From: Vermamoeba vermiformis | Lineage: Eukaryota | Direction: 5' to 3' | DNA: 64,000 bases | Assembly: GCA_045837725.1 (NCBI GenBank) | Contig: JBEWZL010000163.1 | Location: forward strand, 186,001-250,000 | In this document: positions 5,973-51,685 of the stretch, piece by piece | How the letters are laid out: every line of letters begins with the position of its first letter | How positions within the stretch are numbered: the stretch's first letter is position 1 | Notes under the pieces: generated by a model | What the model was told of the DNA's origin: nothing | Seen by the model: the letters and a program-made list of their open reading frames with translations, nothing else | Database searches by the model: none | Position numbers and translations under genes: made by a program

Positions 5973-7658
5973 ATGGCGGAAGATGGAGCCAGCACGAGCG
6001 AAAACAAGCGGATTAGATATCAGGAGAGGTAGATAGTGATGAAACAACGATTAGTATATAGTACAGTCGCTAATCATAATGTTGGACAGAATTAAAATGT
6101 TTGAAGATGAGATAGCCAAACCGGTACTCGATCTCAAAAAAATAAGAGAAATTAGTTTTTATGGTACGTGATTTTATTTGTACTCATAAACGCCAAATTT
6201 ATTCGTCTTAATTGAGCACGAAAAATATTAATTTCAAATAACCATTTTTCGATTTTTATTGCCGTTATTTCGTACTAAAATATTTCTATAGGCATACCAG
6301 AGGGCAGTTTACGCGCGCTATATTGGAAGGTATTTGATCCATAGTCTCAAACACCCCTCACACGATTGACAGGTGCTGCTCAATTACTTGCCACTCAAAC
6401 AAGCGCTGTGGCCGAGTGACTTGCAGAAGAACAGACAGCTCTATCAAGAGTTCAAAATAGAACTCATTGTCAATCCGCGCAAGGACCACGCGGCCTCTAC
6501 AGTCGCCAAGCCCCAACAGGTCGATGATCACGTAAGTTAGTTCACTTCATTCAGTCCAAGTGCGTGTTTGACACGTGTCATTCAGCCACTCTCGCGCAAA
6601 CACGACAGTCAATGGAACACGTACTTCAAAGACAATGAAATGATCGCTGACATCGAGAAAGATGTGCGGCGTACATTTCCTTATTTGCACTTTTTTCAAC
6701 AACCACACAACGACGCGGACACACTCGATCTCTTGCGCTCAACACACACCTTGGCAGGTCCGCGCGATGAGAGTGAGGGCAACATTCACTACATTGCACT
6801 CAAGCGAATATTGTTCATTTGGTGCAAGCTCAATCCCGGCATCAGCTACGTGCAGGGCATGAATGAAATAGTGGGACCGATTTATTATTTGTTTGCCACC
6901 GATGCAGCTACTGAGTGGCGAGGTACGGTGCGATTTTCATATCGACGAGTGAATGACACGTGTCATATTTGCAGAGCACGCAGAGGCTGACGCGTTCTTC
7001 TGCTTCACGAATCTGATGGCAGAGATACGCGACAATTTCTGCAAGAGTTTGGACAGCTCAGACATGGGCATTGTGAATCGCATTCACCAAATGAACGAAC
7101 TGCTCAAACAAAAAGATCTCGAGCTGTGGCAAGATCTCGAACAGAAGAAGTTGAATCCTCAATTTTACAGCTTTCGTTGGCTGACACTGCTGCTGTCACA
7201 AGAGTTTGAACTGCCTGACGTGTTGCGACTGTGGGACAGTCTGTTCAGCGACACCAACAGATTCGAATTCTTGTTGTACGTGTGTTGTGCCATGTTGATG
7301 TAAGTACACTGTTCGCGCTCTAGTAGGTCACTGACACGTGTCATTCAGTGCTGTGCGCGAGAAGTTATTCAACGGTGATTTTGCAGAGAATTTAAAGATG
7401 TTACAGGTACTTCGCAATACTCTTTGGCATCTGTCACGACTAACCTCTTCACAGCAATATCCCCCGACAGATCTACATGCAATTATTACACTCGCGACGG
7501 AAGTTAAAGAACAGAGTTGGCGCGCACCTCCCCGCCAAGAGCGCAAAGGAGCCAGTCTAGTGCCGCACATGCCGAAGAATTCACCGCCCAATTACAGTGC
7601 TGCGGGCAGTCCTCCGACATCGCACGCGCACAACAGTGGTAAAGTGTTCAATTTGTGA
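5973..7658 (+). CDS. TBC-domain Rab GTPase-activating protein (TBC1D13-like)
   Basis: Motifs IEKDVRRT, YVQGMNEI, EADAFFCF and FRWLTLLLSQEF..PDVLRLWD. Confidence 0.92.
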
Positions 7659-7795
7659 AATAAATCTGCGAATATATAACCGTTATATCATAGGACTGGT
7701 ACTCTAATCTTTTTAATTTGCATTTTAATTTATTTTCGCACAATCGGTCACTTTAAACAAAATTTGAGAGATCACTTCATATGCCAGTCTCTCGC

Positions 7796-9691
7796 TTATT
7801 TTGAGGCAAAAGTCACCATACCAACGTCACCAGATTGGAAGGAGTCAGCAGGGACTTGGAACACTTTGAAGATGGGCTTATTGGGGTCCTTGATGGCCAA
7901 GTATTTGCCGGGCTCGAGTTGGCTGAATTGATTGACCAAGTAGCGCAATGAGCCGAACAACTGATTCAACGGCAACACCATTTGACCGGCGAGATCGAGA
8001 GGTCCGTACGACTGCACACCAACAACACCGTGCGTGCTCGGATCACGAGGGTTGTATCGAGCTACAAAGCCGAGCAAAACATTCTGCACGCCAGCCAAAT
8101 ACGACTGTGCGACAACACGTGCCAAGCGGTGGCTGTTGTTCTTAATTTCAGTGGCAAACACTGCTCCACGTTGTGTCTCGTAGCGTCGTCGCCAATCACC
8201 AGTGACGCGAGGATCGTACTCGAGCAAGCAGCGCACATTGACGAGGTTGGGCTGTGCGTCGTTCTCACCGGGCAAGTAGCAGTCGACTTCAGTGCGAGCA
8301 ATGACCGTGATGTCACCGAGCTTCCACTTGCGGTATCGGTAGCCAGCAGAGGCCACTGGCGTGCTGTCACCAGGGGTCACGAAGGGGTTGGGCTTGTCGA
8401 ACTTGAGCGGTGTGGCCTGTGCAGTCTTGTCGAGCACTTGCTGTGAGAAGTTGTGGTTGATGATCGTGGCCTCTTGACTCAACGACGCAGGGGTGTTCGA
8501 GAGCTCGTCGTTGTCAGTGGGTGGATCGTTGCTGTTCTCGTTCACAGTCACAAAGTCTAGCGAGGTGTCAGCAATGCTTCGAACACGTGACAGCAGACTT
8601 ACCAAATTTGGAATCATCGCGCTTGTCAATGATGATCTTGTTGTCAGCAGTCTTGGTGACGACGAGGTCCCAGCTGTAAACTGAGCGCGTCACAGTCATC
8701 AGCGCGGCCAAGATAGCGTCGGTGGCAATCACGGTGACATTTTCACCTCCAGGGGCATCGATATATTGACGGAGAATAGGATCGTCGCTGGTGGTGACTT
8801 TGAAGAAAGTGCGCTCAGCAAACCAATTCTTTTCGAGGGTGCGTTCATTCTTGGGACCAATCACGCGATACGCTTTGTTGAGGGGCTCGAGCACACCGGC
8901 AGATTTGAGGTCTTCAACGGACTCGGGCATCATGGCCAAGGTATTCTGTTGCTTGGTCAATGTCATGAAATCAATTTCCTTCACTGGATCTCCCCACTCA
9001 GGGCGAATCTCGATCGAAGGCAGTGTTTTGTTCATCATCATGTTCATCGTGTTGGTACGACGATAAGTGCTGAAATTTCTGTTAACTTGGAATCGTCCTC
9101 GTTGATTGAAGCCTCCACGTTGATTGAAACCTCCGCGACCTCTGTTGGATTTAGAAAAAAAAAAATAATTTAGATCATTGATTGTGGCTCAGTCGATTAT
9201 CAATCGTAGTGTTGAAATGACCATTACCTTCTGTTGCCTTGATTTTTGTTGTAATATTTGTTGTAACCCTTTTTCTGTGCATAAGCAGGTTTCGTATCCA
9301 CCATTTGGAAGTCTTCTTCATCTTCCTCTTCGAATACATTGAATGCGGTGGCGACTGCTTGTTGAGTTCTCGCTGAAATTATGGCAATAATTAACATCAC
9401 AGCAAAACTTTGAACGGCGATCAAAATATTTTGGATTAACCAAAGAATTTTTTTAAATAATACGCGCTAATTATAGATTGTTCAAAAATAATAAATACAC
9501 AATATTTTTCATTGATAGATCATACCTTGATATTGACGGCCGGTGTTAGTCCAATCTGCGGCTTTTCCTAACTTGTCGCTCTTACTGAAGGGTGCATAAG
9601 GCACGTTCTGAAAGAAGCTGGGCTCGCCTGAAGGACCCCAACCAGTTTCATTGTCTTGAAACTCGGGCAACAGTGCTGTAGTGGTGCTCAT
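7796..9691 (-). CDS. EIF3D: Eukaryotic translation initiation factor 3 subunit D
   Basis: Motifs QDNETGWGP, PYAPFSKSDKLGKAADW, TTSDDPIL, YRYRKW, QRGAVFATEIKNNS and KDPNKP. Confidence 0.95.
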
Positions 9692-9762
9692 GTTTGCGAT
9701 CAAAAACAAAACAACATTAACTCCTTGCATTCATACCACGCAACACAACGGAGATTTACGTA

Positions 9763-10997
9763 ATGGCAAATAGATTTGGTATTATATTCGATATCGATGG
9801 CGTATTGCTGAAGAGGTATTGTTAGTTGTTGGTGATCCAGATCAAGATCCGTCTAACGACGTTGAATTACAGCCACAAAGCCATCCCCGAAGCAAAGCAA
9901 GGTCTAAAAATATTAACAAAATCCACGACTCGGTATGTATTATCCTCATTCAGTTTGGTCTAGCTGTGCTAACTGCGCGGATCCAAGTCAAAATGCACCA
10001 TTCATCTTCGTTACAAATGACGGAGGTACCCCCGAACATATTAAAGCCGAGATATTGAGCAAGGAACTCGAGATTGAAGCACAAGGCGACTTTGTCTTCG
10101 CCTCTCACACACCCTTCAAACAGCTCGGCGAGACTTACCAACACGATCGCGTCTTGTTCGTGGGCAAGAAGCGCGAATATACCGCGGCTATAGCAGATAG
10201 TTGTGGTTTCAAGAACTACGTGCTGTTGGAAGACTTTGCCGCGCAGCATCCGCTGTTGTGTCCGTGGAACAAGTACGAGCAGACAGCCCCCGCCAAGGAC
10301 GATCAGCGCATCAAAGCGATCTTCATGACGCACGAGCCCGTGGACTGGGCTGAAGGACTGCAAGTGTTGTGCGATCTGCTGTTGTCTGCGGGACACTTGG
10401 ACACGCAGCAGTACAAGGACCACTGGCGTCAGCACTCGCAGATACCCATCTATGTGGCCAATCCTGACTTCACCTACTCCGCGCAGGTAAAGTACTGGCA
10501 TATATATATATATATATATATATATGTACCTCGATGGCTTGGACTGATCATGAGTGTATTCAGTACAAAGCCCCTCGCTTCACATCCGGTGCATTCTTGA
10601 TCTGCCTGCAGAACTTGTATAAGGTAATATCACAGCACTAAGCTGGGCGATGCACTCACATAGCACATCATTACAGGAACTAACGCAACGTGATCTCTCT
10701 GTCACTGTGTACGGCAAGCCATTCCCCGAGACCTACATCTACGCGCAAAAGTTGTTGCACCGCATGACAGGTTCAGACGAGCCCTTGAACACGGTGTATG
10801 CCATCGGTGACAATCCACTCTCAGACATCAAGGGCGGCAATTCAGTGGGCTGGTTCACTATTCTCGTGCGCACTGGCTGCTTCCAAGGCGGGGACAATGA
10901 TCCGGTGAATCCAGCGCAGTACGTGTGCAACACTGTACTCGACGCCATCTTGTTCATATTGGAGCGTGAGGGTGTTAAGAATGTCTTGGAGCAATAA
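9763..10997 (+). CDS. HAD-superfamily class IIA hydrolase (HDHD5/CECR5-like)
   Basis: Motifs FDIDGVLL, FVTNDGG, NPDFTY, YGKP, AIGDNPLSDIKGGN and ILVRTG. Confidence 0.9.
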
Positions 10998-11142
10998 ACT
11001 CTCGTTCTTGTTTCTCTTTCATTTGCAGCTGTCACGGATTTCGTACCCAGCCCGCCAAAATTTTCAATTATGAATTGATGTTCGCACTGTTCTATCGAGC
11101 ACAACACAATTAAGGATGAATTACAAATAAGATACATAGAAA

Positions 11143-14100
11143 ATGGTACGATTATCACCCAGAATACAGTATTATTAATGACAATTTCAGATCAACTTTC
11201 TTGCGATCAACGAAGAAAATACAAACAGCTCACAAAATATTTCTGCTTCGCCCAAAAATAAAAATGCGACGGAAGCACAAGTAAGTAAAATGTTAAAAAT
11301 ATTTTAAAAATATTGGCGTGCTAAGCGCGGATGCACCATTACCTAGGAAGCCAAGTTATTTCAGATCTACGACAAGGCAATCAAATACCAATACGACAAC
11401 AAATTCGACGAAGCACGCGAACACTACCAACAGGTGCTCGATCACGAGTTACTCGCGCAGAAGATGAATGCGCAATCGAGTCTGAGCAAGCTCAAGTACC
11501 TCACGCTGAAGAACTTGGCCGATGTCGAGTACAACTGCGCGCACTACAACGCTGCACTCGAACACATTGCGCGCGCTGTGGAGGTGGATGAGAGCGACAG
11601 TCAGATGTGGTACAAGCTCGGTCTGTGGGCCCTCGAGACCTATCAGCGCGACATTGCCCAGTCACGTGACAACTTGCTCTTGTTGGCGCGCTATTCGTTC
11701 GAGACTGGTGTGCGCATCAATCAAGAGGAGCGCGGGGTGTCGCACGATCTGCCCGCATTCAAGTACGACGACTTGCTCTACTTGGAACAGCTCATCGTAG
11801 TGCTCTATCTCATCGGTGATTGGCTCGCGTGTCAAGATGTCATTCACGCGGTGCTAAAAATAGATGCACGGCATGTACTCGCGCTCAAATTTCAAGCGCT
11901 GTTGAGTGGAAAGACTTCAGAGATGAGTGACTTGGAAGATGACACGTGTCAAATGGAGGACGAGGAAGTGATCTACGCCGATCACGTGATCAATGAACTG
12001 CAACACTTGCGCACCAAGCGTGTCAAAACAGGCCTCGAGACTGAGCGCTGGTCACACAATGACATGCACGTGATTGTTGAGTCAGAGACGAGTTTGACAC
12101 GTGCTGTCAAAGCTGTCACGTGGTTTGAACTCGTGTCGTTGATACACGTGACTTACACTGATCGATTGCGCAACCGCAAGAGGTACGTCGCGATCTTCAC
12201 TTTGACACCTGTCACACTAACTTGCACCAGAACTGACCGAGCACTATTCAATTTGCCGCTAAAAATAGAGCTGCCCGAACCAGTGCCCGTTACAAACACC
12301 GAAAACTCGTCTGCACCAAATATGGTAGTACCAGAGGCAAGCAATCAATCGCCGAATGTCCGAGCTAGCGAGGAGATCATGTTGATTGACAGCACGCCAC
12401 TGGAGCCAAATATAGAACAAGACAGCATGCTGACCACCACTGACACCAATCACGAGCCACTGTCCGAGGTGACGCAAGATGTGACACGTGACTCGACTGT
12501 CTTCCTCACTCCGCGCCACAAGACACCTGCCTCGATTCGAAGGTACGTGCAGCTATTTTTAGCACCACGTTTGCTGACCTCGCCAGATCACGACGCATTG
12601 ACGAGAAGAAAAAGAGTCGTCCTGAGATGTATCAGCACGTGATTGAATCTTTGCAGCTCATTGGTGCAATGAAGGTGCGCGAGGAGGTCAGTGAAGTGGA
12701 GCAGTCACGTGACGAGTCCAATCAACCGACCAATCCCGACGAGTCCTCAAATGTCACCGCGACCAGCAATGTGTTTGTGACACCTGTCAAAAAGAAGTCC
12801 GCACCAGTCACAGTGGCAGTCAGTGACCAGGAGCGCGAGCACGTGGAACAATTCATCAACCAGGGCAATGACGCGCAGTACTCGCTACTTTATTGGATGT
12901 GGCGCACTGTTGCGACCCTGGTCGAGTGTTGGACTAAAAAGGAAATTGGCTATCAACCTCAGTACAACGAGAAGATGGCAAATCTATTTTTAGCAACCAC
13001 AGAGATCGTAGAACGACACTTCAGCACGCAGTACGAACCAGCAGTGATGACAGGTGTCAGCTTTGTGAGTGCCGAAATGACACTTGATCTCGCGCTCCGA
13101 GCTACAAATGACACGGACCGCGCCAAGTACATGACACGTTGTGACACGTGGCTGCGACGACTCGAAAATAGTGCGGAATATCATGCAATCATGAACGGCG
13201 AACTCGCAGTGAGGTAAGCGACACTTTGACACTTGCACTCCTAACTGACACGTGTCAAAGACATGTCTGGATGAAACTCCGCATGAGTGAATTGAAGCGA
13301 AATTTCACTGCAGCAGTTGACGAGCTGAACGAGTGTTTGACATTGTTGAAAGCGAATGAGTCCAAGCCTGTCACATTGCCGCTGAGGTAAGTGTTTGACA
13401 CGTGTCAATATGACATTGACAGTACTTGACAGCAATGACCCGCGCGAGATCACGTGCGCCACAGTGGAGCAGAGGCTGCACGAGTTGGAGGGCGAGAAGA
13501 ATCAGCAAGTGGTGCGGCAAGTGTTCGAGCAGGGCGATCACGTGACCAGTGTCACTCAACTGACCGCGCTGCTGGCACACGAGGCAGAGCTGTTCGCACA
13601 CTGGAAGGACCATCTCAGCAGCCTCAAGTACGACCAAGCCAAGGCCCGCTACGACCTCTTGATGATGCTCTACAAGGTAAGTGTCAACCTGTACCGCGAT
13701 GTGTTGACACGTGTCACAGAGTCACCTCGCACTCAATCACCACGAGGACGCAGTGCGCACGCTGCTGCAAGTGCTGGAGTGTCACCGCTGCGTGTGCAAG
13801 TTGTCGCTGAACGATGACAGCAAGCGTCGTGTGCGCGGTCGCAGTGCCAAGACGAGCGAGGACAAGGACCAGTGGCTCACTCGCCTCGATCTGCTCGCTC
13901 AATTGGTGGAGGCCTTGAATCGCGGTAAGTGGACACGACTCACAACTATCACGAGTGACTGATTGACACGTGTCATTCTGCAGAGTCGGTGAGTGTCGAG
14001 CTGCTGTCAGAGATCAAACAGCTGATGGCCCTGCTGCTCAAGCCCGTGCTCAAGAACGCTGCGCTGCTCGATGACCGCGAGCTCGATCACCTCGAGTCCT

Positions 14101-31260: not shown

Positions 31261-31266
31261 GGTTAA

Positions 31267-41542: not shown

Positions 41543-43494
41543 CTAGTTGTCACTTGAGACCACTAGCCGTGTGCGTGCTGCTGTACGAGCGAGGGACTGT
41601 GCTTTGAGAGGCGTGCCTTGGTGCTTGATCTGCACTCGACGCGCAGTGCCCGCAGACCAGGGCGATGAAGTGACATTAGAGTGTATGTTCATCTCATTGG
41701 CTGTGCGTGCAGCGAGGGGCTTAGGTGGCTGTGCGTTGACTTTGATGCGCTTGACTTGATGGTGTCGCACAGGTGTCACGGGCAGACTGGGGGTCATTTC
41801 TTCGAATTTGCGCTTGCGAGTCACGTGACTGAGCTCGTCGTCACTCGTGTCGGAGTCGCACACAGTCTCCGTCACAAACACTGTTTCGAGGTTCTGATAG
41901 GGTGGAAATATCACGCGACCCTTCTTCTTGTAGCTGCGCACTGGATCGCGCAGGGCAGACTTGTGCACACGCGATTCACAGCTAGTCTCGCACACGGGGG
42001 ACTGAGGTCGTGTCGCGAGTGGCATGGCCGCGGTGTTGAGTGCATTGCGCGCGAGTCGAATGTTCTCTTGCTTGAGCTGTTCGTTGAGTTTGACGAGCAC
42101 ATCAATCTGCTCTTGTTTCATGCGCAGCTCTTCTTGCAACTGCTTCACCTAGACAGCACACAGCTCAGTAACGCTGGACTGGTAGTGCAACTGCACCGCT
42201 CTTACCGCGTCACGCCAGGCAGGCAGGTCGAGTGTAGGGGCAGCAGGCACGGGCACTGGTCTGACCACGGCCTTGGCACTGACTGCAAATCTCAGGGCTG
42301 CAAGTGACTCCGCGCTGTGGGCTGCAGCAGGGGAGAGTGCAATGATGATGGCAATGCGTGCAGTGCCGAGCAGTGCTGGCGCTAGGGCACGAGTCAGCTG
42401 TGAGGCACGCCATGGCACGTGAGTAGTGCGCCGCGCGAGAGCGTGAATGACCAGTGCGAGTGAACTGAGTGACTTGTTGATGGCAATGGTCTCACCCATC
42501 GCTACTCCTTGCACTTGACTCGCTTTGACGCGCTCAGATCTGTAAAGTGAGATGAGTGCTGCATGGCGATAGAATACATAGAAGGCTATATATATGGAGA
42601 TGACTGCATGCAGCTGTTACTCACCCAGCGAGGTCAATTAACATGAGACACGCCTTGGCAGCCTTGTTGTGCACGCGAATACTCACAACGCAGTGAGATC
42701 TGGAGCTAGTGGCATTCATCTTGGTGGAGGTGACGGAGCGGTGCTTGTGTCCTATTTGAATCAGTCGTCGACCCTCCTCCGCTGAGTGGATGCGATGACG
42801 ACTCAAATTCGCGATTGTTAGACCCTCTTCAGTCTTGGCTAATCGCAGCCTATCAACCGATCAGTATTGTACCACTTGCGCGTACTGCTACTTACATTCG
42901 AGGATCAGTGTCCAAGTTCAACAAGTCGTAGATCAGCTCGTTGTAGATCTCAAAGATGCTCATTTCAATCACGGAATCACCTCCGCGCTGTTCTGCGCTC
43001 TGAAACAGCTCGTGAATACTGCGCATATAGACGCCAGGGTCCTCTTCAGTGCCATCCATCGTATAGGTCTTGCCTGCACCTGTTTGACCGTACGCGAATA
43101 TGCATCCAGAGTAGCCCTCGAGGACCGACAAGACGAGAGGTCGGATGCGTTCAAATACTTGTTGCTGCGAGCACTCGGCATCGAGTACGTGATCAAATGT
43201 AAAGGCCTTGTCTTCTAATAAGACTTGACGGGCTCCACTGTCCGTTTTAACAGCTAATGGCTCTTGTAATTCACATCCAAGAGGTCTGCGCACTCTGCAC
43301 AACACTTGTACGTGCTCCCCTGCATCGCACAATTAGTCGATGATTGATATATCAATACGAAGATTAATCCAATCAATTACCTTCTTGGTTTAATTCTTCA
43401 TCCGAGTCGAGGTTCTAAAATAGGTCAGTATTTTACTGTGATTTAATGTGATACACACCTCATCATAATCAATATTTAACTCTTGTGTGGACAT
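41543..43494 (-). CDS. Kinesin motor-domain protein (kinesin-14-like sequence features, motor near N-terminus)
   Basis: Motifs VQVLCRVR, IFAYGQTGAGKTYTM, EIYNE, NATSSRSH, LIDLAG|SER and INKSLSSL. Confidence 0.9.
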
Positions 43495-43651
43495 TGTTAA
43501 CAGAATTAAGTTCAAATGCGCAACGGTCACTAAAAAAATTAAAAATTGACAAGCAAAAAAACGCGCGCAAATGAACGGGTGCGCAGAGAATTCTTCATTC
43601 GAACACGATTGGTGATAGTTCGACCAACACAGACTATCACTGCTATCAACC

Positions 43652-44257
43652 ATGGTACGGTTCAAAAATAGATATTTTTTGATTGAGCTTAACTGGTCCA
43701 AGCGCACTCCACCACAAGGGTTGAGTAAAGAACATCTAGCCAGTGCAGTGCGCGAAAGTCTTCGTATTAATTTTGGAGATTTTGGCCTTAACTCGGTGAT
43801 TCAATTCCTGCAGAGTACGTTGACTAAATTAACCAAGGCTATTTTAAATAATTATTTTTAATTATTTATGGTTGCGACTTACATTTTATCTGGTTTAATG
43901 ACCAGCACTTCAGCTCGATTAACCATCGCAAATCTCATCTACTAATTATTGTATTTAGTAAAATATTACAACGAGAAAACAAACATCTGCATAGTTCGGT
44001 CCTCACGAGAGCGGTTTCGCATGGTTTGGGCAGCACTCAGCTTCATCACGCACATTGAAAATGACGACGTCTACATGCGCGTATTGCATGTGGGTGGTAC
44101 ATTAAAGTCCTGTCAAAAACAGGCAATCACCTTCGATAGGGAACTTGTACGGCTCATGCAAGCTAGCGAAGACGACTTGTCAGACGATGCAGATATTGAT
44201 AGCAACGAAAATACTAGCAAAGTTGACGACAAAATGGAGACAGATCCAGTCGTCTAG
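43652..44257 (+). CDS. POP5: RNase P/MRP subunit POP5
   Basis: Motifs MVRFKNRY, NFGDFG, VKYYN, VWAALSFI and VLHVGGTLKSCQK. Confidence 0.93.
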
Positions 44258-44495
44258 ATGAAGAGCAGCTCGCGCCACTGCTCACTTTTTGTAAATAAAA
44301 ACAATTGGCAAACAATCGAAATCCGTACTTCAATTGTGTGCGTAATATTATCGTGATCTGCTACAAGTGAATCTGAATTATAATTAGATGGAGTTACAAG
44401 ACTCATTCGTATTTTTGGGTTTTATTTAATATGGTGACCTAACGGAGCCCCGCAATTATTTAACATTGTTTTTTTGAGTTGAAAAGAGTATTATT

Positions 44496-45110
44496 TTATT
44501 TGTCTTCGCCCTCTTCAGCCTCAGCCATTGCCTCTTCAGCGTCGTGAATATTGAAATATCTAAGTTGGTACGATTGTTTGCCAGTAGCAACGACGCGCAA
44601 CCAATCACGGAGCTGTTGTTTCTTCAAGTACTTCTTGATCAAGTATTTGAGGTATCTCTTTGAAAAGGGGGCTTGAGCAAGAACAGTGATCTTAGCCTTC
44701 TCGCGTTGGAGCTTGACAGACTCACCGAGAGCTCCAGCCTTTCCGTTAACCTTGATGTGTTGAGCGAGGAAGGTTTCCTATTAATTGTTAATTTATTTTG
44801 AATAAAGTTAAATAGTATTTCCATTATTAATTCATTATCCATTATAATTAATTAGACTGTTAATAATCAATAATAAAAATAATAATATCGGATCGAATAA
44901 AATAATAATTATAATTTCCCTTGTAATACTTACAAGACCAGCGGCATCGAAGATAGTATCTTCAACGGGCTTACCGCAATCGAGAACAAATTTCAAGGTT
45001 TGTTTCTTTCCCTTTTGGGTCTTCTTTACAACTTTCTAAATGCGATCAATAAAAATTAGCTACTAATATCCAAAGCATAGATTATCATCCGCACTTACAT
45101 TGGCGGGCAT
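44496..45110 (-). CDS. RPL22: 60S ribosomal protein L22e
   Basis: Spliced [17 protein letters not shown]...[11 protein letters not shown]...[27 protein letters not shown]...YQLRYFNI. Confidence 0.96.
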
Positions 45111-45433
45111 TTTAGATCTACTCTGTTCACTCAGTGCCGGAACTGGTAAGAAGAAAAGGGGAGATTGCACATAAGGACAACAAAAAACAAAAGTTAAAAT
45201 TAATAAAAAAATTGACCAATCAAATTAACTGGAAACAAAAATGAGCACAAACGGCAAGGAACGAATCAAATTGTCCGTACAACGTGTAATACACGTAATA
45301 CCACCATTCAATCATTCGAATTTATTTGGCAATTCGTTAATTGAGTTTAACAGATGCACGCGACGAAACGGTACGTCAATTTGTGTGAAGCAGGTGCAAA
45401 TTAATTTGAAGTATTCATTTACAAACGATTTAT

Positions 45434-48400
45434 TTACTTGAACAAATCATCGTCATCGTCGAAGAGTGCGTTCTTCTTGGGCGTGGTTTTCTTAACGGGG
45501 ATCTTGCTGAACAGATCGTCATCATCGTCGTCGTCGAACAAGCTCTTCTTAGCAGACGAAGGACGGGAAGCAGGAGACTGTGCAACAGGTGTCTTGACTG
45601 GTTGTACTGGCAGCGAGTCTTCGAGCTTGTACTGCACTGACTCCTCTTCGTCTTTGTAGTCTTCAATCGAGTGCCCCTGTTGCACTTGAATGTGCTCGTC
45701 GCTCTCTTTGCTCTCATCAGCGTCCTTGTTCTCTGCACTCTGGCGCGAGGTGTCATCAGCAGCGACAGTTGCAACGTCCTTATTGACATCTGTAACAGCT
45801 GGTGAGTACCGTGACACAGTGTGTATGCTACACGACTTACCTGTTTCAAACACGTTGATCTCTTTGTCGTCGCTCTCCTTCGACTCCCCCTTGTCCTCGC
45901 TACTCTCCAAGGTACTCTGTTCCAAAGAGCTGGGTCGTTCTAACGTCGAGGCGAGCAGGTCGTTGTCGCGCTCACCGAATGTGGTGTCTTCAGAGCTCGG
46001 CAACATGCTGGCTTCGAGAGGATTGGCGCGCTCATCGGGCAGCGAGGAGTGTTCGAGTACGCTAGTGCCGTACTGCGAGGAGAGCATGGCCTGATCGAGC
46101 GAGGCCTTCAAGTCACCCTCCACTTCAATCACATCGTGCTTGGGCTCGTCATCGCGTGCCTCACTGCTGGACTGTGCACTCGACTCCTCGGCGTGTGAGG
46201 GCAGTGCAGATTGCTCCAATGTGTTGTCTGCACTCTTGGGCTCTGATTGGTCGAGTGTGGACTGATCGAGTGCTGATTGGTCAACAGACGAGTGCTCAAC
46301 GGCTGAGTGGTCGAGTGTGGACTGTTCCAGAGGTGATGGTTGGTCCTGCGCGGGCTGGTCACCAGCTGTGTGTTCCAAGGTAGATTGGTCGAGTGTGGAC
46401 TGTTCCAGAGTTGGTTGTTCCAATGTTGACTGTTCCAATGCCGATTGGTCCAAGGTAGATTGCTCTAGAGTTGGTTGTTCCAATGCGGATTGATCCAATG
46501 TCGATTGTTCTAATGCAGATTGTTCCAGGGGTGATGGCACCTCTTGCTTAGTCTCGACTTCCACGGCTGTGTGTCCCAACTCTGATTGCTCCAAGGTATC
46601 GTGCTGCACTTCACTGGTCTGTACAGGTGCGTGGACATCACTCGTGGCTGAGTGTGCCTCGTCTTGTGTTGCTGCACCATCCACCGGGGACTGCTCGTCA
46701 GTGGCCTGCTCACTGGTGGTGTGTTCACTCGCATCGACGTGTGGCACTGCAGTGTCGTCACTCACCGACTGAGCGGCAGTGTTGTTCACATGGCTCTCGT
46801 GCTGCTCTGTGACGGGACTCTGATCGACGGACTCGTGTGGCGTGTCCTCCACCGCACTGGACTCCTCGTGCACATTGGAGGATTCTTCAACATTCTCGTG
46901 CACATTGGAGGATTCTTCAACATTCTCGTGCATATTGGAGGGTTCTTCAACATTCTCGCTGACATCGAGCTCTTGCTGCTCTTTCTGACGCTGCAGCACT
47001 TCGAGGGTCGTTTGCACCACGACGCGCTTGATGGTCGAGAGCACTGAAGCAGTGTCGTACTCAGCCTGTTCGTCAAACTGCTGCGTCAAGTTGACGTAGA
47101 CGTTGTTCATGATGCTCTTGACGGCAGTGGTCATGTCTTCAGCACTGCGCTGTCGCTCGGCCTTGACTGCACGAGCGAGGCGTGCTTGCCACTGCTGATC
47201 AGTCGCGTGCTCCGTGCTCACTGGGGCACTGACTGCACTGGGCACGGCAGCGAGTTGTTCTTGCAACTGTCGCACTGTGTCTTGCAGCTGCGCTACCTTG
47301 TGCTGCTCGTGCGCGCGCTGCTCATTGAGACTCTGCAGCTGTGTCTCGTACTCGTCCACGGTCTGCGCGAGCTTTTGACGACTCTCAGCCTCGCGACTAG
47401 CCAGCACAGCTTGCCACTTGTGCTCGCACTCTTGTTCGACACGCTCCAGCTGTTCTTTGCTCAGTGTGCCACTCGCCGTGCGCTCTTTCTTGAGTGTGGC
47501 ACGCAGCTCTTCAATCTGCATCTCGAGGCTGCTCTTCTCCTCGTCAAACGCACTCTCGCGCTTCTTGATCTCGGTGATGTACTTGCGCTTGTTCTCCTCC
47601 ACCAGCTTCACGGTGCGCTGATGATTGTCGCGCTCTTCTTCGAGCTCCGCTTTGAGTGCGTCGAGCTCTTGTTGCACACTCTTGACGCGCATCTGCTCCT
47701 CGCGTATCTTGAGCTCGTACTTCTTGTGCTCGCTGCTCAGCGCGGCCACGGTGCTCTTCAGTGACTCGCGCTCAATGCTCTCACGTTCGCGCTCATCGGT
47801 CAGTGCGCGCACTTGATCCTCCAAGCTCTGTTGCGTGCGCTTCATGTTCTGCACCTTGCGCGCTGCAGCTTCAATGGTCTCATTCGCACTCGCCAAGTCC
47901 TCTTCGACCTTGGTCTTCTCCTGCACAGGTGGTCAATGCACTCGTCGCTGTGATGCGGACACTTACCGATTGCAGCTGCAAGATCTCGCGCTGCAGCTTG
48001 TTCTTCTCCTGCACGCTGAGCTGCAGGTCTTGTTGCAGTCGCGTTCTCTCCTCGCGCACCTGATCCAGTTGTTGCAGTTGCACGCGCTCTTGACTGAACT
48101 TGCTGTTCTCATCCACCACGCGCTGATTGCGCTCGTGCAGCTGATTGATGTTCTCGCGCAGCAGTGTCACGTGACGACTCTTCTCTTCCACATCTACGGT
48201 GAGACGTTCATTCTCGAGCACAATCTTCTGAATCAGATCGAGCAGATTGCGCGGTGTGAAGCCTCCAATGTCACGTCCGCGCTGTGGTGCGTCAATCTTG
48301 TCGCTCAACTGCTCCAGCTTGGTGCTCATGGTGTCAATCTTGCTCTTCAGCTCCACTTTGTACTGGCGCTCGTCCACCAGCAGCTGCACCATCTCTGTGG

Positions 48401-50073
48401 TTGACAGCGCGGCTTGTGGCTGTGGCATGAGCATGGAGGGATTGGGAGGCTGTTGCATGGCATAGGGGCTCATGGCGTTGTTCATGTGCGCGTACATGGG
48501 CGCTTGAGCACTGTACTGCGAGGAGAGCACCATTTGATTGCCGTGCTGCGCGCCAGGCATGTTGGTCATGGCGAGTGGTGCCGCAGCTTGCAGGGGTGCA
48601 GTGTGATACATGGGCTGCGGTGGTGTGGGGGCGAGGAGGGGCTGTGCGGGGCTCACATAGGGCTGTGGTGCCGGCACACTGCTCGCTTCTGGCTGCACGA
48701 CACTCTGTGGCTCTGCACTGATTGTCGCACTGCTGTGTGGCGGTGAGGAACTGACAGGTGTCACGGGCTTGGCGGTCATGGTGGGCACTCCTAATTTGGA
48801 AATGCGTTCCATGAGCTTGGACTTGGCCTTGTCCTCCGTGCTGCTCTCGGTGGCAGTGGGCGAGGACGAGAGCACATCCACACTGGGCAGCGAGGGCAGC
48901 GGTGCTTGTTCTTCACTCGCGGCACTGCTCTCCACGCGTGTCTCGCTCACACTGCTCGTGCCGGACTTCTTCATCTTCTCCAACTCCACCACGAACACCA
49001 GCGTCATGTGCGCAGTCACGTGGGGTGCCAGGCCCTTGTCCCCGTACCCGAGTGCTGCAGGCAGTACTAACACACGGCGTTGTCCGCGCTTCATGCCCAA
49101 CACACCGCGATCGAGTCCCGCGAGCACGGAGCCCTTGCCGACTTCGAATCGGAGTGGTCGCTCTTTGTCCGTGTTGCTCTCGTACTTGGTGCCAATCTTG
49201 TTCTGCGCACTGGTCCACGCACTGTAGCGCAGACCCACCAAGTCCCCAGCTTCAATCGCGTGTCCCTTGGCCGGCACAATCAAGTCCAGCACACCGAGTC
49301 CCTCGCTCTTGGCAGCACACCACTGCGCGAGGGCGAGTTGTGCACTCAGTGCCTCGCACTCATCGCGTGTGGGGAAGTGAATGGCCCAGGACTGCGCGGC
49401 ATCGTCCGTCAACTGGCCCCAGTGCTCATTGCCCTGCAACGTGACAGTCCACTTGAGCTCGCTGGTGAGGGTCGTGGTGGTGATGGGCTTTTGCGGCGTG
49501 TAGTAGAGCAGCAGCGTCCACTTGTTGCTGGCCTGGTGCTGCAACACTGCTGCTCCTACCTTGCCGAGGGGTGCTGGACTCTGCTTGCCTGCCTCGCTGT
49601 GCGGGGGGTGAGTATATGGCGAGTATAGGAGGGGTATGCTACGCACTATTTGAACAGCTGCACGCCTTGGAAGTAGATCACAGCCGGCTGTGTACTCGCA
49701 GCAGTGCTACTCGCAGGCTGCGGTGTGTTGCTGCCACCAGAGCCGCGACGTTGTGCGTCAGTGCTGCTGGGGGGCTTGGGTCGGTCGTATGTCAACTTCT
49801 CTTTCGGGGCTGGTCCTTCGCTCTTGAACACATCTGCGAGCTTCTTGCCTCCTTTAGCGCTGAAACGATCGTGTTAATAAATAATTAATTTCTTGCTGCT
49901 AAACTGTAATTAATTGAATTGATCGGAAGTGGATCGTCCAAACACTGCTGACAGAATTGATTGCCATCAACACAATAATCATTATATGAATAGCGCATAA
50001 TAAATACACATTTTAAGTACCTCGAGAATAAGAAATCATCTTCATCGTCACCACCAGCACTTAAGAATGACAT
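45434..50073 (-). CDS. FKBP15: FKBP15 (FKBP133/WAFL)-like protein: N-terminal WH1-like region, FKBP domain, long coiled coil, acidic repetitive tail
   Basis: FKBP motif GLDRGVLGMKRGQRRVLVLPAALGYG...TLVFVVEL, KLMERISKLGVP, IQKIVLENERL, VKSIMNNVY and a terminal LFDDDDDDDLF. Confidence 0.8.
46240..46530 (-). repeat. Coding minisatellite, ~15 bp units encoding (S/P)(T/A)L(E/D)Q pentapeptide repeats
   Basis: Translation reads LEQSALEQSTLDQSALEQPTLEQSTLDQ... Confidence 0.85.
46860..46960 (-). repeat. Coding tandem repeat, three 30-bp units (ENVEE[P/S]SN[M/V]H)
   Basis: CTCGTGCA(C/T)ATTGGAGG(A/G)TTCTTCAACATT repeated in tandem on the + strand. Confidence 0.85.
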
Positions 50074-50297
50074 TGTTGATCTAGTTTAACGTTAATTGCG
50101 AATGTACGCTCAATATTCATTTTCAAATAATGTACCTGCACTGATGGATGATCTCTTAGTGAATTAGACTAGATACTGGTTGATTGGAAAACTCTTCTCA
50201 AATTTACACAACAAGTGGAGATTTCGCGACACGTGTCCGGTACAATGGCGAATATCCACAAAGCAGTATACAGAGCTAATTACATCGTTAGGGGGGT

Positions 50298-51685
50298 TTA
50301 TTTCTTCTTTTTCTTGCCCGATAATAGCGAGGCAAAAATACTATTTACATCTTTGGGTTGGATCTGCGCCTTAACTGGTGCGGGGCGAGGAGGGGTGGCT
50401 GGCTTGGACTTTATAGGTTTTGTATTATGTGGAGGTGATAATACAGCTGCTGAGGTAGGTTCCGCTGAGCTGTGTTTTACTTTCTTCTTTTTAACCACAT
50501 CCGTACGCGGTGTATTAGCAGTGCTACTGTTGACTTTCATATGCTCTGTGGCCTCGTCGACTTCATCGTCTTCTCTCTTTCGCTTAACACCGCGTCCGGG
50601 CGATGGCATTGATTCACTGAACGACCGTTCACTGAACGACGCAGTGGTGACAGGCGGTGAAGTGCCCACTGTCTCGCCCATATCTTCGTCGTCATTGGTC
50701 AGAGTGCGCAGACTCCTGTGCAGTTCATTGACAGCTGTCTCTTTGACTTGACGTGTCTCAGCCTCGCTTGCAGTACTCTGAGTGACACGTGTCAACAACT
50801 GATCGAACTGCTTCTTCTTTTTTTTCTTTTTTTGGACATTGTTCGCCGCTACGTGCAATGAGCTCGGCAACGGACCAATCAGCTGCTTGTACAGTTTGAC
50901 GCGTGTCATCAAGTCACTCTCGCGTGTCAGCAGCGCGTCATGATCGGAAGTGACACGTGTCACAATCAAGTCGTAGAGCAGCGTCACGTGATGCATGAGC
51001 TTGTGATGCAGATTGTAGAAGCGCGCGAGACAGGTGATGAATGCGAGTGAGAGGGCCATGAAGTAGGTCTCTTCGAGCTGATGCGCGAACAAGCTGTGCA
51101 GCGTGAGTATAGTGAGACTACAATGCTAGTCATTGGGGACGTACTCGTAGGCCGAGAGAATGTACTCGTTGAGCTCGGTGAGGTACAGCGTGAGGCCGTA
51201 CAGCTTGTACAGCACGTACAGCGCGCAATGCTCCCACGTACTGCGCGGGGTGGGACTGAGACTAGGCGTGAGTTATACCACATCCTGCTGATTTTACATA
51301 GTTATATACTCACTTGGTGCTCAGGGCTTCTTCGCTGGTCGGAAATGTGGCTTTAATCCACGCAATGAGGTCACTTATATCAACTGCGCGTATTCTTTTT
51401 AATATCTGAAGCTAAATATTAATTATTTTTGAATTTTAATGGGCAGATCCAACCCACCTGTTGAACGCGCTTATAATATCGAGCACGTTGATGCTGATTT
51501 TTATTCTTATAAATCATGCGCTCTAACAGCACTGTTTCTGCTGCGTAGAATGGTTTGATCAGATCCGCGATCTTCAGCAGTTGCTTGACTGGCGTAATAT
51601 CAGTGTAGGCCCACTTGCCCTTGAAGAACAATGTATTGTCATTCTTATCGCGTAATATTGCTTTCAAAATCGTGTATTGGTTCAT
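50298..51685 (-). CDS. NEPRO/RMP1-like RNase MRP subunit (nucleolus and neural progenitor protein N-terminal domain)
   Basis: LLERMIYKNKNQHQRARYYKRVQQ, YFMALSLAFITCLAR, C-terminal DVNSIFASL and a basic tail. Confidence 0.7.

What the first reader, a model, noticed from the sequence alone, without database searches (positions are those of the whole stretch)
6569..50962. Highly iterated 12-bp palindrome TGACACGTGTCA family pervading gene bodies (eukaryotic HIP1/USS-like phenomenon)
Seen: exact TGACACGTGTCA at about 6569, 6954, 7332, 11940, 13246, 13396, 13705, 13964, 15365, 23671, 32321, 39092, 50783 and 50951, i.e. at least 14 copies found by eye. A random 12-mer is expected about 0.004 times in 64 kb at equal base frequencies. 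The one-mismatch variant TGACACCTGTCA/TGACAGGTGTCA (e.g. 12203, 12778, 13048, 18163, 18181, 24116, 36132, 38762, 38864, 38963, 48752) and GTCACGTGAC (e.g. 11661, 16014, 28277, 28926, 32533, 34122, 41820, 48166, 53324) are similarly frequent. Copies lie in exons in several frames (giving LTRV, DTCQ, HVT, TPVK, SRD) and in introns of unrelated genes, with no shared flanks or target-site duplications. Known: the core combines an E-box (CACGTG, bHLH) with TGACA half-sites (TALE/TGIF-type homeodomain), and similar overabundance is known for cyanobacterial HIP1 and Neisseria/Haemophilus uptake sequences. Inference: a DNA-level system (protein-bound chromatin mark, or repair/gene-conversion drive favouring bound sites) is writing the motif into genes regardless of coding cost. 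This is the best candidate here for an undescribed system.
Basis: partly seen in the sequence, partly recalled or inferred. Interest (0 to 1): 0.9.

Follow-up and report, generated by a model that had tools for sequence, protein, structure and literature searches.

The report
Hyperabundant gene-body palindromes in an amoeba
A 12-base palindrome and its CACGTG core are packed into the exons and tiny introns of a Vermamoeba-like amoeba far beyond chance, are kept in place between species and even change the encoded amino acids, much like the still unexplained HIP1 palindromes of cyanobacteria.

Summary
All 14 exact TGACACGTGTCA copies sit at the stated coordinates, against at most 0.9 expected under Markov orders 0-6. 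The window comes from Vermamoeba vermiformis or a close relative.

The 12-mer is a discrete unit. TGACA-N2-TGTCA occurs only with CG (14) or CC/GG (11) spacers. It has no shared flanks.

- **Location:** 9 of 14 exact copies lie in short introns and none of the 25 family copies lies outside genes.
- **Introns:** 8 of 9 intronic copies end 3-9 nt before the 3' splice site, where yTGAC is the branch-site candidate.
- **Exons:** 12 of 13 exonic copies use one frame, ACA-CST-GTC.
- **CACGTG core:** 124 copies. It survives a protein-preserving codon shuffle in CDS (93 vs 38.3±4.2) and creates lineage-specific His-Val dipeptides.
- **Related species:** a syntenic contig from a relative shows the same enrichment and excess conservation.

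Whether it acts on DNA or RNA is not shown. My best reading is a HIP1-like duplex-recognised motif whose placement is filtered by splicing and coding. I found no published description.

The parts
6569..6580 (.). exact 12-mer in intron 6532-6585 (+ gene), ends 5 nt before the 3' splice site
   Evidence: joint 6531>6586 in X1 and X2 contigs; its TTGAC is the only yTRAy candidate
6954..6965 (.). exact 12-mer in predicted intron 6923-6974 (+), ends 9 nt before the 3' splice site
   Evidence: intron predicted only
7332..7343 (.). exact 12-mer in intron read by eye, 7300-7348 (+), ends 5 nt before the 3' splice site
   Evidence: intron not confirmed by RNA
11940..11951 (.). exact 12-mer in exon (+), frame GAC ACG TGT (Asp-Thr-Cys); the one exonic copy in the other frame
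   Evidence: coding HSP 11428-11970 runs through it; L001 has TGACAGCTGTCA here
13246..13257 (.). exact 12-mer in intron 13214-13260 (+), ends 3 nt before the 3' splice site
   Evidence: coding HSPs end at 13214 and resume at 13259; L001: TAACACGTGT-A
13396..13407 (.). exact 12-mer in intron 13387-13432 (+), 9 nt after the 5' splice site, 25 nt before the 3' end
   Evidence: L001 has a decayed copy here and an exact copy about 20 nt downstream in the same intron
13705..13716 (.). exact 12-mer in intron 13677-13719 (+), ends 3 nt before the 3' splice site; sole branch-site candidate
   Evidence: absent in L001
13964..13975 (.). exact 12-mer in intron 13925-13983 (+), ends 8 nt before the 3' splice site
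   Evidence: identical in L001 while the intron flanks differ
15365..15376 (.). exact 12-mer in exon (+), TTG ACA CGT GTC ACT = Leu-Thr-Arg-Val-Thr
   Evidence: L001 CGACACGCGCCA: three T/C differences, no indel
23671..23682 (.). exact 12-mer in intron 23638-23685 (+), ends 3 nt before the 3' splice site; sole branch-site candidate
   Evidence: joint in X1 and X2 contigs and 16 raw RNA reads of X19; identical in L001
32321..32332 (.). exact 12-mer in predicted intron 32316-32365 (- gene), ends 5 nt before the 3' splice site; sole branch-site candidate
39092..39103 (.). exact 12-mer in predicted exon (+), Val-Thr-Arg-Val-Lys, in the low-complexity tail of the ubiquitin hydrolase gene
50783..50794 (.). 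exact 12-mer in predicted exon (- gene), Leu-Thr-Arg-Val
   Evidence: exon predicted only
50951..50962 (.). exact 12-mer in predicted exon (- gene), Val-Thr-Arg-Val
   Evidence: exon predicted only
12203..12214 (+). TGACACCTGTCA, sense, in intron 12183-12230 read by eye
   Evidence: L001 has TGACACGTGTCA at the aligned place, intron flanks diverged
12778..12789 (+). TGACACCTGTCA, sense, exon, Val-Thr-Pro-Val-Lys
   Evidence: identical in L001 within a 33-nt block without any difference
13048..13059 (-). TGACAGGTGTCA on + (the only copy whose CC form is antisense), exon, Met-Thr-Gly-Val
   Evidence: L001 has TGACACGTGTCA
18163..18192 (-). two copies (18163, 18181) of TGACACCTGTCA in sense of the - strand bZIP gene, exon, Met-Thr-Pro-Val twice
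   Evidence: X1 contig lies unbroken on 17052-18602; first conserved in L001, second not
24116..24127 (+). TGACACCTGTCA, sense, in intron 24078-24149
   Evidence: (joint 24077>24150 in X1 and 10 X19 reads)
36132..36143 (-). TGACACCTGTCA in sense of a - strand gene, intron 36113-36169 read by eye
38762..38974 (+). three copies (38762, 38864, 38963) of TGACACCTGTCA, sense, predicted exon, each Val-Thr-Pro-Val, among about 11 ACAC(C/G)TGTCA-like words in 500 nt
48752..48763 (-). TGACACCTGTCA in sense of a - strand gene, predicted exon, Val-Thr-Pro-Val-Ser
1046..62755 (.). 124 CACGTG hexamers: 93 in predicted exons, 21 in introns, 10 elsewhere; includes 12 GTCACGTGAC and 29 TCACGTGA

Best explanation
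The 12-mer is the most symmetric member of a family of E-box-centred palindromic words (CACGTG, and TGACA-SS-TGTCA). A Vermamoeba-lineage amoeba keeps these words at very high density inside its genes.

**How copies arise and persist.** Copies arise by point substitution, not insertion. They are maintained at the nucleotide level. Because the unit is a strict inverted repeat with fixed 2-bp spacing, I infer that it is read as duplex nucleic acid. The most likely reader is a two-fold symmetric (dimeric) DNA-binding or DNA-modifying protein acting on gene bodies, which would make this a eukaryotic counterpart of cyanobacterial HIP1.

**Where copies survive.** The host gene sets this.
- In the ~50-nt introns the copy sits where its left half, yTGACAC, doubles as the branch site (branch A 12-17 nt from the 3' splice site).
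- In exons it is tolerated almost only as ACA-C(G/C)T-GTC (Thr-Arg/Pro-Val).
- CACGTG is tolerated mostly as CAC-GTG (His-Val).
- The orientation that would create AG|GT in the transcript is avoided.

**Shown:** abundance, discreteness, compartment, position in introns, imposition on codons and amino acids, and excess conservation in a second species.

**Inferred:** recognition as duplex DNA by a dimer, and that function rather than a neutral restoring bias maintains it.
For: **Discreteness and symmetry**
- TGACA-N2-TGTCA occurs 25 times, and only with CG (14) or CC/GG (11). No other spacing from 0 to 30 nt exceeds 2.
- Symmetric TCA flanks around CACGTG occur 14 times, against 2.6 expected if the two sides were independent.
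- Mismatch spectrum: 14 exact, 15 one-off (11 of them central), 13 two-off.

**Not composition**
- Markov orders 0-6 give at most 0.89 expected copies.
- CDS CACGTG is 93 against 38.3±4.2 under a synonymous shuffle.

**Nucleotide rather than peptide target**
- His-Val is 61 observed against 25.6 expected, and 53 of 61 are CAC GTG.
- Thr-Pro-Val is 14 against 2.6, and 9 of 14 are ACA CCT GTC (0.23 expected).
- Thr-Arg-Val is 12 against 3.3, and 7 of 12 are ACA CGT GTC (0.18 expected).
- Asp-His-Val is GAT CAC GTG in 8 of 8.
- The 11 His-Val of GNL1 align to other residues in 9 outgroup orthologues, apart from one site in one outgroup. One replaces a conserved aromatic.

**Origin by substitution.** Ungapped differences from L001 at 15365 and 13705. 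No shared flanks.

**Maintenance across species.** L001 is syntenic, with 70-86% nt identity in well-aligned bins.
- It carries 5 exact copies, 3 CC/GG copies and 1 GC copy, plus 30 CACGTG, in 11.6 kb.
- 19 of 36 window CACGTG sites are conserved, against 25.7% of all hexamers (p about 5e-4).
- 7 of 13 family sites keep the outer 10 bases, against 9.2% of all 12-mers (p about 6e-5). The only changes inside those 7 are in the two central bases.

**Filtering by the gene**
- 9 of 14 exact copies lie in introns, which are 12.6% of the window.
- 8 of 9 end 3-9 nt from the 3' splice site (p about 7e-5).
- The motif's yTGAC is the only yTRAy candidate in 5 of 12 motif-bearing short introns. Its branch A lies at 12-17 nt, the same range as in introns without the motif (median 15).
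- 12 of 13 exonic copies share one frame.
- The CC form is in sense in 10 of 11.
Against: - No family copy (0 of 25), and only 10 of 124 CACGTG, lie in the 19.7 kb I class as non-genic. A purely DNA-level mark does not predict this. It fits an RNA-level or transcription-coupled cause equally well or better.
- No binding protein, modification or chromatin data could be examined.
- The intron and exon classes rest largely on my own crude gene parse. RNA contigs or reads confirm only 3 of the 12 intronic placements and the 2 exonic ones at 18163/18181. Cross-species coding matches support 4 more exonic ones.
- Density differs greatly between genes, from 16 CACGTG in the 1.6-kb GNL1 CDS to none over 5.7 kb (42416-48168). 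I cannot explain this.
- Everything rests on 64 kb plus one 11.6-kb orthologous contig.
Confidence: 0.4

Rival explanations
1. RNA-level splicing element. The 12-mer is an extended branch site (yUGACAC pairing with the conserved U2 snRNA branch-recognition sequence) plus a second half that acts in the pre-mRNA, by pairing with another copy or with a trans-acting RNA. The exonic copies and CACGUG act as splicing or mRNA-level signals.
For: - Intronic copies sit at the branch-site position and are often the only candidate.
- The family is confined to the part of genes that is spliced and translated.
- The CC variant is in sense in 10 of 11.
- CACGTG follows GTRAGT directly in 3 of 79 introns.
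- That yUnAy-AC complements U2 GUGUAGUA is established knowledge, recalled and not tested here.
Against: - A reverse-complement second half has no meaning for a single-stranded RNA site.
- The 12 motif-bearing introns do not fold better than shuffles. Z-scores run from -2.83 to +1.54, and only 1 of 12 is below -2.
- CACGTG shows no concentration next to splice sites on the exon side.
- CACGTGTCA and TGACACGTG are equally frequent in sense.
- The sense bias of the CC form is explained more simply by avoidance of AG|GT.
- Exonic copies are conserved at synonymous sites far from introns.
Confidence: 0.25
2. Neutral drive. A sequence-specific repair, methylation-linked mismatch correction or biased gene conversion active in transcribed DNA keeps converting near-cognate sites into CACGTG and TGACA-SS-TGTCA, with no function for the motif itself. 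This is the first reader's 'drive' reading and is analogous to very-short-patch repair skewing oligonucleotide counts in E. coli (recalled).
For: - Copies arise by substitution.
- The spectrum is sharply peaked on the exact word.
- The CpG-transition neighbours CATGTG/CACATG are 23 observed against 67.3 expected from dinucleotides. CACGTT/AACGTG are at 0.51 and CACGTC/GACGTG at 0.68 of expectation.
- Amino-acid replacements even touch a conserved aromatic.
- The motif shifts position within one intron between species.
Against: - Within CDS the depletion of CATGTG (3 vs 6.0±2.0) and CACATG (9 vs 9.5±1.9) is not significant against the synonymous-shuffle null.
- Excess conservation at orthologous sites is what Xu et al. 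2018 (abstract read) took as evidence for selection rather than replenishment in HIP1. A repair that protects existing sites would give the same result, though.
- A drive does not explain the large differences between genes.
Confidence: 0.2
3. Remnants of a mobile element. The copies are fragments or minimal forms of a MITE- or introner-like transposon whose inverted terminal repeats are TGACAC/GTGTCA.
For: - Palindromic shape.
- Enrichment in introns.
- Some copies are preceded by GT(R)AGT-like words within 0-9 nt (family D5).
Against: - No conserved flanks beyond the 12 bases in 25 aligned copies. Repeat families built on them are only 60-80% identical, owing to the core alone.
- No target-site duplication is seen.
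- No longer TGACA...TGTCA pairs.
- Presence/absence differences from L001 are ungapped substitutions.
- Exonic copies are in frame and encode conserved protein.
Confidence: 0.03
4. Composition artefact. The counts follow from codon usage (CAC for His, GTG for Val), CC/GG and TA avoidance, and low-complexity proteins rich in Thr-Pro-Val.
For: - CAC is 85% of His codons and GTG 60% of Val codons in Pfam-supported ORFs.
- Dinucleotide skews: CC/GG 0.64-0.69, TA 0.67, CA/TG 1.3.
- Several exonic copies lie in low-complexity tails.
Against: - Markov orders up to 6 leave a 16-fold or greater excess of the 12-mer.
- The synonymous shuffle leaves a 2.4-fold excess of CACGTG (z about 14).
- Rare codons (CCT, GAT) are used when they complete the word.
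- Introns show the strongest excess: 21 observed against 2.76 by dinucleotides.
Confidence: 0.02

Closest known systems
HIP1 (GCGATCGC), the highly iterated palindrome of cyanobacteria (Xu, Lawrence and Durand 2018, PMC5861425: abstract and outline read. Elhai 2015, PMC4390886: abstract seen in a search listing)
   Same: - A short palindrome, hyper-abundant inside genes.
- The excess survives composition nulls.
- Conserved at orthologous positions beyond background.
- No peptide-level explanation.
- Function unknown.
   Different: - A eukaryote with spliceosomal introns.
- Absent from non-genic DNA here, whereas HIP1 is conserved within and between ORFs.
- A two-layer family (6-mer core plus a 12-mer inverted repeat with a variable S-S centre).
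- The intronic copies double as branch sites.
- Cognate methyltransferases are known for HIP1 and none could be examined here.
- The 10-90 kb periodicity cannot be tested on 64 kb.
DNA uptake sequences (USS/DUS) of Haemophilus and Neisseria (recalled, no paper read)
   Same: Short words at hundreds-fold excess that intrude into coding sequence.
   Different: - Uptake sequences are not palindromes as single units.
- They serve natural transformation.
- They also occur between genes, as inverted pairs in terminators.
- Nothing here points to DNA uptake.
Dimeric TALE-homeodomain site TGACAGCTGTCA (TGIF1 homeodomain crystal structure on ATTGACAGCTGTCAAT, PMC6158717: passages read)
   Same: Identical half-sites (TGACA/TGTCA) and identical 2-bp spacing. 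L001 carries exactly TGACAGCTGTCA where the window has TGACACGTGTCA.
   Different: - The centre is CG or CC in the window. GC occurs 0 times in the window and once in L001.
- The sites are in gene bodies at high density, not in promoters.
- No TALE protein of this organism was examined.
E-box and the CLEAR-type palindrome GTCACGTGAC of bHLH-zip factors (recalled, no paper read)
   Same: CACGTG core. GTCACGTGAC occurs 12 times and TCACGTGA 29 times.
   Different: - About 2.6 sites per kb of exon and of intron, and none concentrated near gene starts. 6 of 114 lie within 300 nt of predicted starts.
- Flanks other than TGA...TCA pair no more often than independence predicts.
Extended branch-site and 3' splice-site motifs of intron-poor protists, such as ACTAACACACAG in Trichomonas and Giardia (recalled; a related comparative paper, PMC2483917, was seen only in a search listing)
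   Same: A branch site with ACAC extension lying close to the 3' splice site in short introns.
   Different: - Only 12 of 52 short introns carry the palindrome.
- The second half is the reverse complement of the first.
- The same word also occurs in exons.
Introner and MITE families that create introns (recalled)
   Same: Short repeated sequence found in many introns of unrelated genes.
   Different: No shared flanks, no target-site duplication, and origin by substitution.

Membership tests
HIP1-like hyper-abundant palindrome | short palindrome many-fold over-represented against composition and codon-aware nulls | tested here: met
   12-mer 14 vs 0.89 or less. CACGTG in CDS 93 vs 38.3±4.2.
HIP1-like hyper-abundant palindrome | sites conserved between genomes more than control words | tested here: met
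   19 of 36 CACGTG vs 25.7% of all hexamers. 7 of 13 family sites vs 9.2% of all 12-mers. One related contig only.
HIP1-like hyper-abundant palindrome | [quoted passage not shown] | tested here: not met
   0 of 25 family copies and 10 of 124 CACGTG in 19.7 kb of non-genic sequence. The compartments come from my own gene parse.
HIP1-like hyper-abundant palindrome | recognised by cognate DNA methyltransferases | not testable with these tools
   No genome is held and no modification data are available.
HIP1-like hyper-abundant palindrome | periodic distribution at 10-90 kb | not testable with these tools
   The window is 64 kb.
Spliceosomal branch site | yUnAy consensus with the branch A roughly 10-40 nt upstream of the 3' splice site | tested here: met
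   The motif's yTGAC puts the A at 12-17 nt in 7 of the 8 3'-proximal copies; the eighth (6954) has ATGAC, not yTGAC. It is the only yTRAy candidate in 5 of 12 motif-bearing short introns. This holds for intronic copies only.
Spliceosomal branch site | the A is used for lariat formation | not testable with these tools
   No lariat reads were examined. Read laying is capped at one call.
Dimeric TALE-homeodomain binding site | inverted TGACA half-sites with 2-bp spacing | tested here: met
   25 of 25 TGACA-N2-TGTCA, and no other spacing is enriched.
Dimeric TALE-homeodomain binding site | central GC as in TGACAGCTGTCA, and binding by a TALE protein | tested here: not met
   The centre is CG (14) or CC/GG (11), and GC occurs 0 times in the window. 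Protein binding was not tested.
Promoter E-box / CLEAR element | located in promoters or near transcription starts of regulated genes | tested here: not met
   6 of 114 genic CACGTG and 0 of 25 family copies lie within 300 nt of predicted starts. Intergenic density is 0.51 per kb against 2.6 per kb in genes.
MITE / introner | copies share sequence beyond the terminal repeats and are flanked by target-site duplications | tested here: not met
DNA uptake sequence | serves uptake by a competence machinery; occurs in both genic and intergenic DNA | not tested
   There is no way to test uptake. Absence from non-genic DNA argues against it.

The most novel reading that the evidence does not exclude
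Vermamoeba-lineage amoebae run a HIP1-like system in a eukaryotic nucleus. A dimeric DNA-binding or DNA-modifying protein reads E-box-centred palindromes that are kept at about 2-3 per kb specifically inside protein-coding genes. The force is strong enough to rewrite codons, amino acids and branch sites. Such a gene-body word could mark the cell's own genes, for example for chromatin, repair or self/non-self discrimination in a host of many giant viruses.
Probability: 0.3. Interest if true: 0.9.

Novelty: new variant of a known kind. Interest (0 to 1): 0.78.

Why it matters
Hyper-abundant palindromes such as HIP1 have stayed unexplained for three decades and are known only from bacteria. This is a eukaryotic case.

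The same words sit in exons, where they change proteins, and in tiny introns, where they serve as branch sites. They are conserved across species. That offers new handles on the problem:
- Splicing and coding constraints separate what the motif needs from what the gene tolerates.
- The organism is culturable.

There are practical consequences too:
- Gene finders and branch-site models for these amoebae should know the motif.
- His-Val and Thr-Pro/Arg-Val excesses in their proteins should not be read as protein-level adaptation.
- The palindromes appear to break short-read contigs.

Tried and rejected
- **Whole-genome k-mer analysis:** impossible, because no genome is held for the window.
- **Taxon from the Aquarius fragment:** no close relative among longer proteins. 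AP-3 mu gave the answer instead.
- **RNA hairpin or intron-bridging helix:** the 12 motif-bearing introns fold no better than shuffles.
- **Longer repeat or transposon:** rejected.
- **Pure composition or codon usage:** rejected. General palindrome enrichment is also rejected. The excess over a third-order model is carried by the CACGTG-type and AT-repeat palindromes alone.
- **Promoter-type transcription-factor site:** no concentration near gene starts.
- **Exonic splicing-enhancer idea:** CACGTG is not concentrated within 20-120 nt of splice sites on the exon side.
- **VSP-like neighbour depletion:** clear against a dinucleotide model but not against the synonymous-shuffle null in CDS. I leave it open.
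- **Expression link:** in the 20 kb laid, the most deeply covered gene (7796-9691) has few copies and the motif-rich gene 11347-16970 has low depth. There are too few genes for any claim.
- **Rfam and ARAGORN:** nothing found in the window.
- **First codon-null run:** it had one ORF out of frame and is superseded.
- **First two gene parses:** they over-predicted introns and were replaced. Five merged introns were then corrected by hand.
- **Literature:** the 12-mer appears only as primer text in two Ebola virus papers. The V. vermiformis genome paper has no occurrence of 'palindrom' or 'motif'. Searches combining CACGTG, over-representation, introns, gene bodies, amoeba and protist found nothing relevant. 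Supplementary files could not be seen.

Full report
**Observation**

None appeared in 100 dinucleotide-preserving shuffles. Allowing one mismatch gives 29 sites against 0.31 expected. Eleven of these are the central variants TGACACCTGTCA/TGACAGGTGTCA, and only four have a mismatch elsewhere. GTCACGTGAC occurs 12 times against 0.13 expected. The core CACGTG occurs 124 times, which is 8.3 times the base-composition expectation. Markov models of order 0 to 6 trained on the window itself predict 0.004 to 0.89 copies of the 12-mer.

**Organism**

- The window is gene-dense and eukaryotic. Pfam finds Aquarius, AP-3 mu, a ubiquitin hydrolase, an FKBP, a bZIP factor and a GNL1-type GTPase.
- The AP-3 mu reading frame is 97% identical to a transcript-derived protein whose EukProt accession names Vermamoeba vermiformis. 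The next relatives are at 55% or below.
- No whole genome is held for the window.
- The published V. vermiformis draft-genome paper reports 3.5 introns per gene. It has no occurrence of 'palindrom' or 'motif' (passages read).

**The 12-mer is a discrete unit**

- Of 107 TGACAC words on both strands, 28 (the 14 palindromes counted twice) are followed by GTGTCA and 11 by CTGTCA.
- TGACA and TGTCA pair 25 times at a spacing of exactly 2 nt, and only with CG or CC/GG between them. No other spacing from 0 to 30 nt occurs more than twice.
- Around CACGTG, symmetric TGA...TCA flanks occur 14 times where independence of the two sides predicts 2.6. Other flanks pair about as independence predicts.
- The 25 copies share nothing beyond the 12 bases. 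The repeat finder builds only core-driven families.

**Gene structure**

RNA-derived contigs of two runs and raw RNA reads of a related organism were laid on 6000-25900. They show short GT..AG introns of 43-192 nt. Fifteen joints are listed and 29 more were not shown.
- Three joints enclose motif copies: 6532-6585, 23638-23685 and 24078-24149.
- An unbroken contig over 17052-18602 shows that the two copies at 18163/18181 are exonic.

I then built a crude gene parser from codon log-odds and splice-site matrices trained on 28 introns. I corrected five merged introns by hand. It assigns 36.2 kb to exons, 8.1 kb to introns and 19.7 kb to neither. These classes are my own and are imperfect. Coding matches to a related contig support the exon calls at 11940, 12778, 13048 and 15365 and the intron at 13214-13260.

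**Where the copies lie**

- Nine of the 14 exact copies are intronic, 1.11 per kb against 0.14 per kb in exons.
- None of the 25 family copies lies in the non-genic class (p about 1e-4).
- Eight of the nine intronic exact copies end 3-9 nt before the 3' splice site (p about 7e-5 under uniform placement).
- The left half reads yTGAC in seven of these eight (ATGAC at 6954), which matches the branch-site consensus.
- In 5 of the 12 motif-bearing short introns it is the only yTRAy candidate. Its A lies 12-17 nt from the intron end, and candidates in introns without the motif have a median of 15.
- Twelve of 52 short introns carry a family member.
- I infer that intronic copies supply the branch site. 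That yUnAy followed by AC complements the conserved U2 GUGUAGUA is recalled knowledge, not tested here.

**Exons**

- Twelve of 13 exonic copies use one frame, xTG ACA C(G/C)T GTC A, which gives Thr-Arg-Val or Thr-Pro-Val. The exception is 11940 (Asp-Thr-Cys).
- The peptide does not explain the word:
  - Thr-Pro-Val is 14 observed against 2.6 expected, and 9 of 14 are ACA CCT GTC where codon usage predicts 0.23.
  - Thr-Arg-Val is 12 against 3.3, and 7 of 12 are ACA CGT GTC (0.18 expected).
  - His-Val is 61 against 25.6, and 53 of 61 are CAC GTG (32 expected).
  - All 8 Asp-His-Val use the minor codon GAT.
- Across predicted CDS, CACGTG is 93 observed against 38.3±4.2 after shuffling synonymous codons within each gene (maximum 49 in 200 shuffles).
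- In GNL1, the 11 His-Val dipeptides are shared with relatives at 85-88% identity: all 11 in one and 9 of 11 in the other. They align to other residues in nine outgroup orthologues, with one exception in one species. One replaces a conserved aromatic.
The 'coding cost' is real.

**Compartments for the core**

Against dinucleotide expectations of each compartment, CACGTG is 93 vs 22.9 in exons, 21 vs 2.76 in introns and 10 vs 4.41 elsewhere. Density varies widely between genes: 16 in the 1.6-kb GNL1 CDS, and none across 42416-48168. Copies are not concentrated near gene starts or next to splice sites on the exon side.

**A second species**

A metagenome contig (L001, 11.6 kb) encodes a 72%-identical orthologue of one window protein. 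It is collinear with window 11426 to about 24150, at 70-86% nucleotide identity in well-aligned bins.
- It carries 5 exact 12-mers, 3 CC/GG variants, one TGACAGCTGTCA and 30 CACGTG.
- Of 36 alignable window CACGTG sites, 19 are identical in L001. The controls are 25.7% of all hexamers, 23.8% of other central-CG hexamers and 26.3% of one-mismatch neighbours (p about 5e-4).
- Of 13 family sites, 7 keep all ten outer bases, against 9.2% of all 12-mers (p about 6e-5). In 3 of those 7 only the central dinucleotide differs (CG/GC, CC/CG, GG/CG).
- In one intron the exact copy has moved about 20 nt while the old position decayed.
- Where a copy is present in one species only, the difference is ungapped substitutions.
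- The family therefore predates the split of these two organisms. It arises by substitution and is maintained against divergence that has scrambled the surrounding intron sequence.

**Strand asymmetry**

The CC form is in the sense strand in 10 of 11 cases. The CG-type half words are symmetric. The GG form in sense would read CAG|GTGTCA, a 5'-splice-site-like word. Avoidance of that, and in exons Thr-Pro-Val against Thr-Gly-Val, explains the bias without invoking an RNA-level function.

**Mechanism**

A strict inverted repeat with fixed spacing implies recognition of a duplex. The 12 motif-bearing introns do not fold better than shuffled controls, so an intramolecular RNA helix is not supported.

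One cause that covers both exonic and intronic copies is more economical than a splicing role alone. My best reading (0.4) is a HIP1-like word read on duplex DNA by a two-fold symmetric protein acting in gene bodies, with placement filtered by coding and splicing. The intronic copies do double duty as branch sites.

The main weakness is the absence from non-genic DNA. That fits an RNA-level role (0.25) or a transcription-coupled restoring bias without function (0.2) as well or better.
- A very-short-patch-like signature is visible against a dinucleotide model. The CpG-transition neighbours CATGTG/CACATG are 23 against 67.3 expected.
- The same depletion is not significant against the codon null in CDS.

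**Comparison with known systems**

- **HIP1 of cyanobacteria:** like HIP1 in abundance, conservation and lack of a peptide explanation (abstract read).
- **TGIF/MEIS dimer site:** shares half-sites and spacing with TGACAGCTGTCA (passages read).
- **E-box/CLEAR words:** shares its core with these (recalled).
- **Defining features not met:** it is not found between genes (HIP1), its centre is CG/CC rather than GC (TALE site), and it is not promoter-proximal (E-box).
- **Literature:** I found no description of the phenomenon. The 12-mer string occurs only in two unrelated virology papers, and three topical searches found nothing relevant. Supplementary files could not be consulted.

**Limits**

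- All counts come from one 64-kb window and one 11.6-kb orthologous contig.
- Compartments rest mostly on my own gene models.
- No protein-binding, modification or lariat data were available.

Noticed in passing
window 4875, 11854, 12259, 12553, 12984, 32787, 33735, 33838, 36047: CTAAAAATAG/CTATTTTTAG occurs 9 times, 6 in predicted introns and 3 in exons, and 4 times in L001. Its shape is that of a CTA-W4-TAG MADS/MEF2-type site (recalled). It is another over-represented quasi-palindrome confined to gene bodies.
   Followed up: partly
window 15265 to 62183, 7 of 13 within gene 31933-36624: TTCASTGAA occurs 13 times, 12 of them in predicted exons. It fits the TTC-N3-GAA shape of STAT sites (recalled).
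   Followed up: partly
window-wide, e.g. 11534, 14855, 17304, 35697: ACTGCGCG/CGCGCAGT occurs 28 times, 24 of them in predicted exons. It belongs to a wider excess of GC/CG/CA-alternating hexamers such as TGCGCG and CGCGCA.
   Followed up: no
window 7343, 13409, 13719, 13975: Assembled contigs of runs X1 and X3 stop matching the window at or within 3 nt of the end of a 12-mer and continue with unrelated sequence (table 7). Possible causes are chimeric or fold-back joins at the palindrome, or other loci sharing it.
   Followed up: no
window 28105-29631 (+): The GNL1 GTPase has 16 CACGTG in 1.6 kb. Its 11 His-Val dipeptides are absent from nine outgroup orthologues except at one site in one species. 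One replaces a conserved aromatic residue.
   Followed up: yes
window 42416-48168, incl. ORF 45434-47932 (-): A 5.7-kb stretch holds no CACGTG at all. It includes an 832-aa low-complexity ORF built of 15- and 30-nt tandem units.
   Followed up: no
window 30000-31700: An AT-rich stretch with local repeat families. Three units end in a GGAATTGAACC-like word resembling the complement of a tRNA T-arm, yet ARAGORN and Rfam report nothing.
   Followed up: partly
window 38600-39110 (+): The C-terminal tail of the ubiquitin hydrolase gene holds about 11 ACAC(C/G)TGTCA-like words in one frame within 500 nt. They give repeated (V/T)TPV(K/N/S) and TRV(K/T) peptides.
   Followed up: partly
window 8554-8603 (- gene): Raw RNA reads of the related organism X19 join 8554 to 8603 with two extra letters (42 reads), where the X1/X2 contigs join 8556 to 8603. 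This is a small species difference at an intron boundary (tables 5 and 5c).
   Followed up: no
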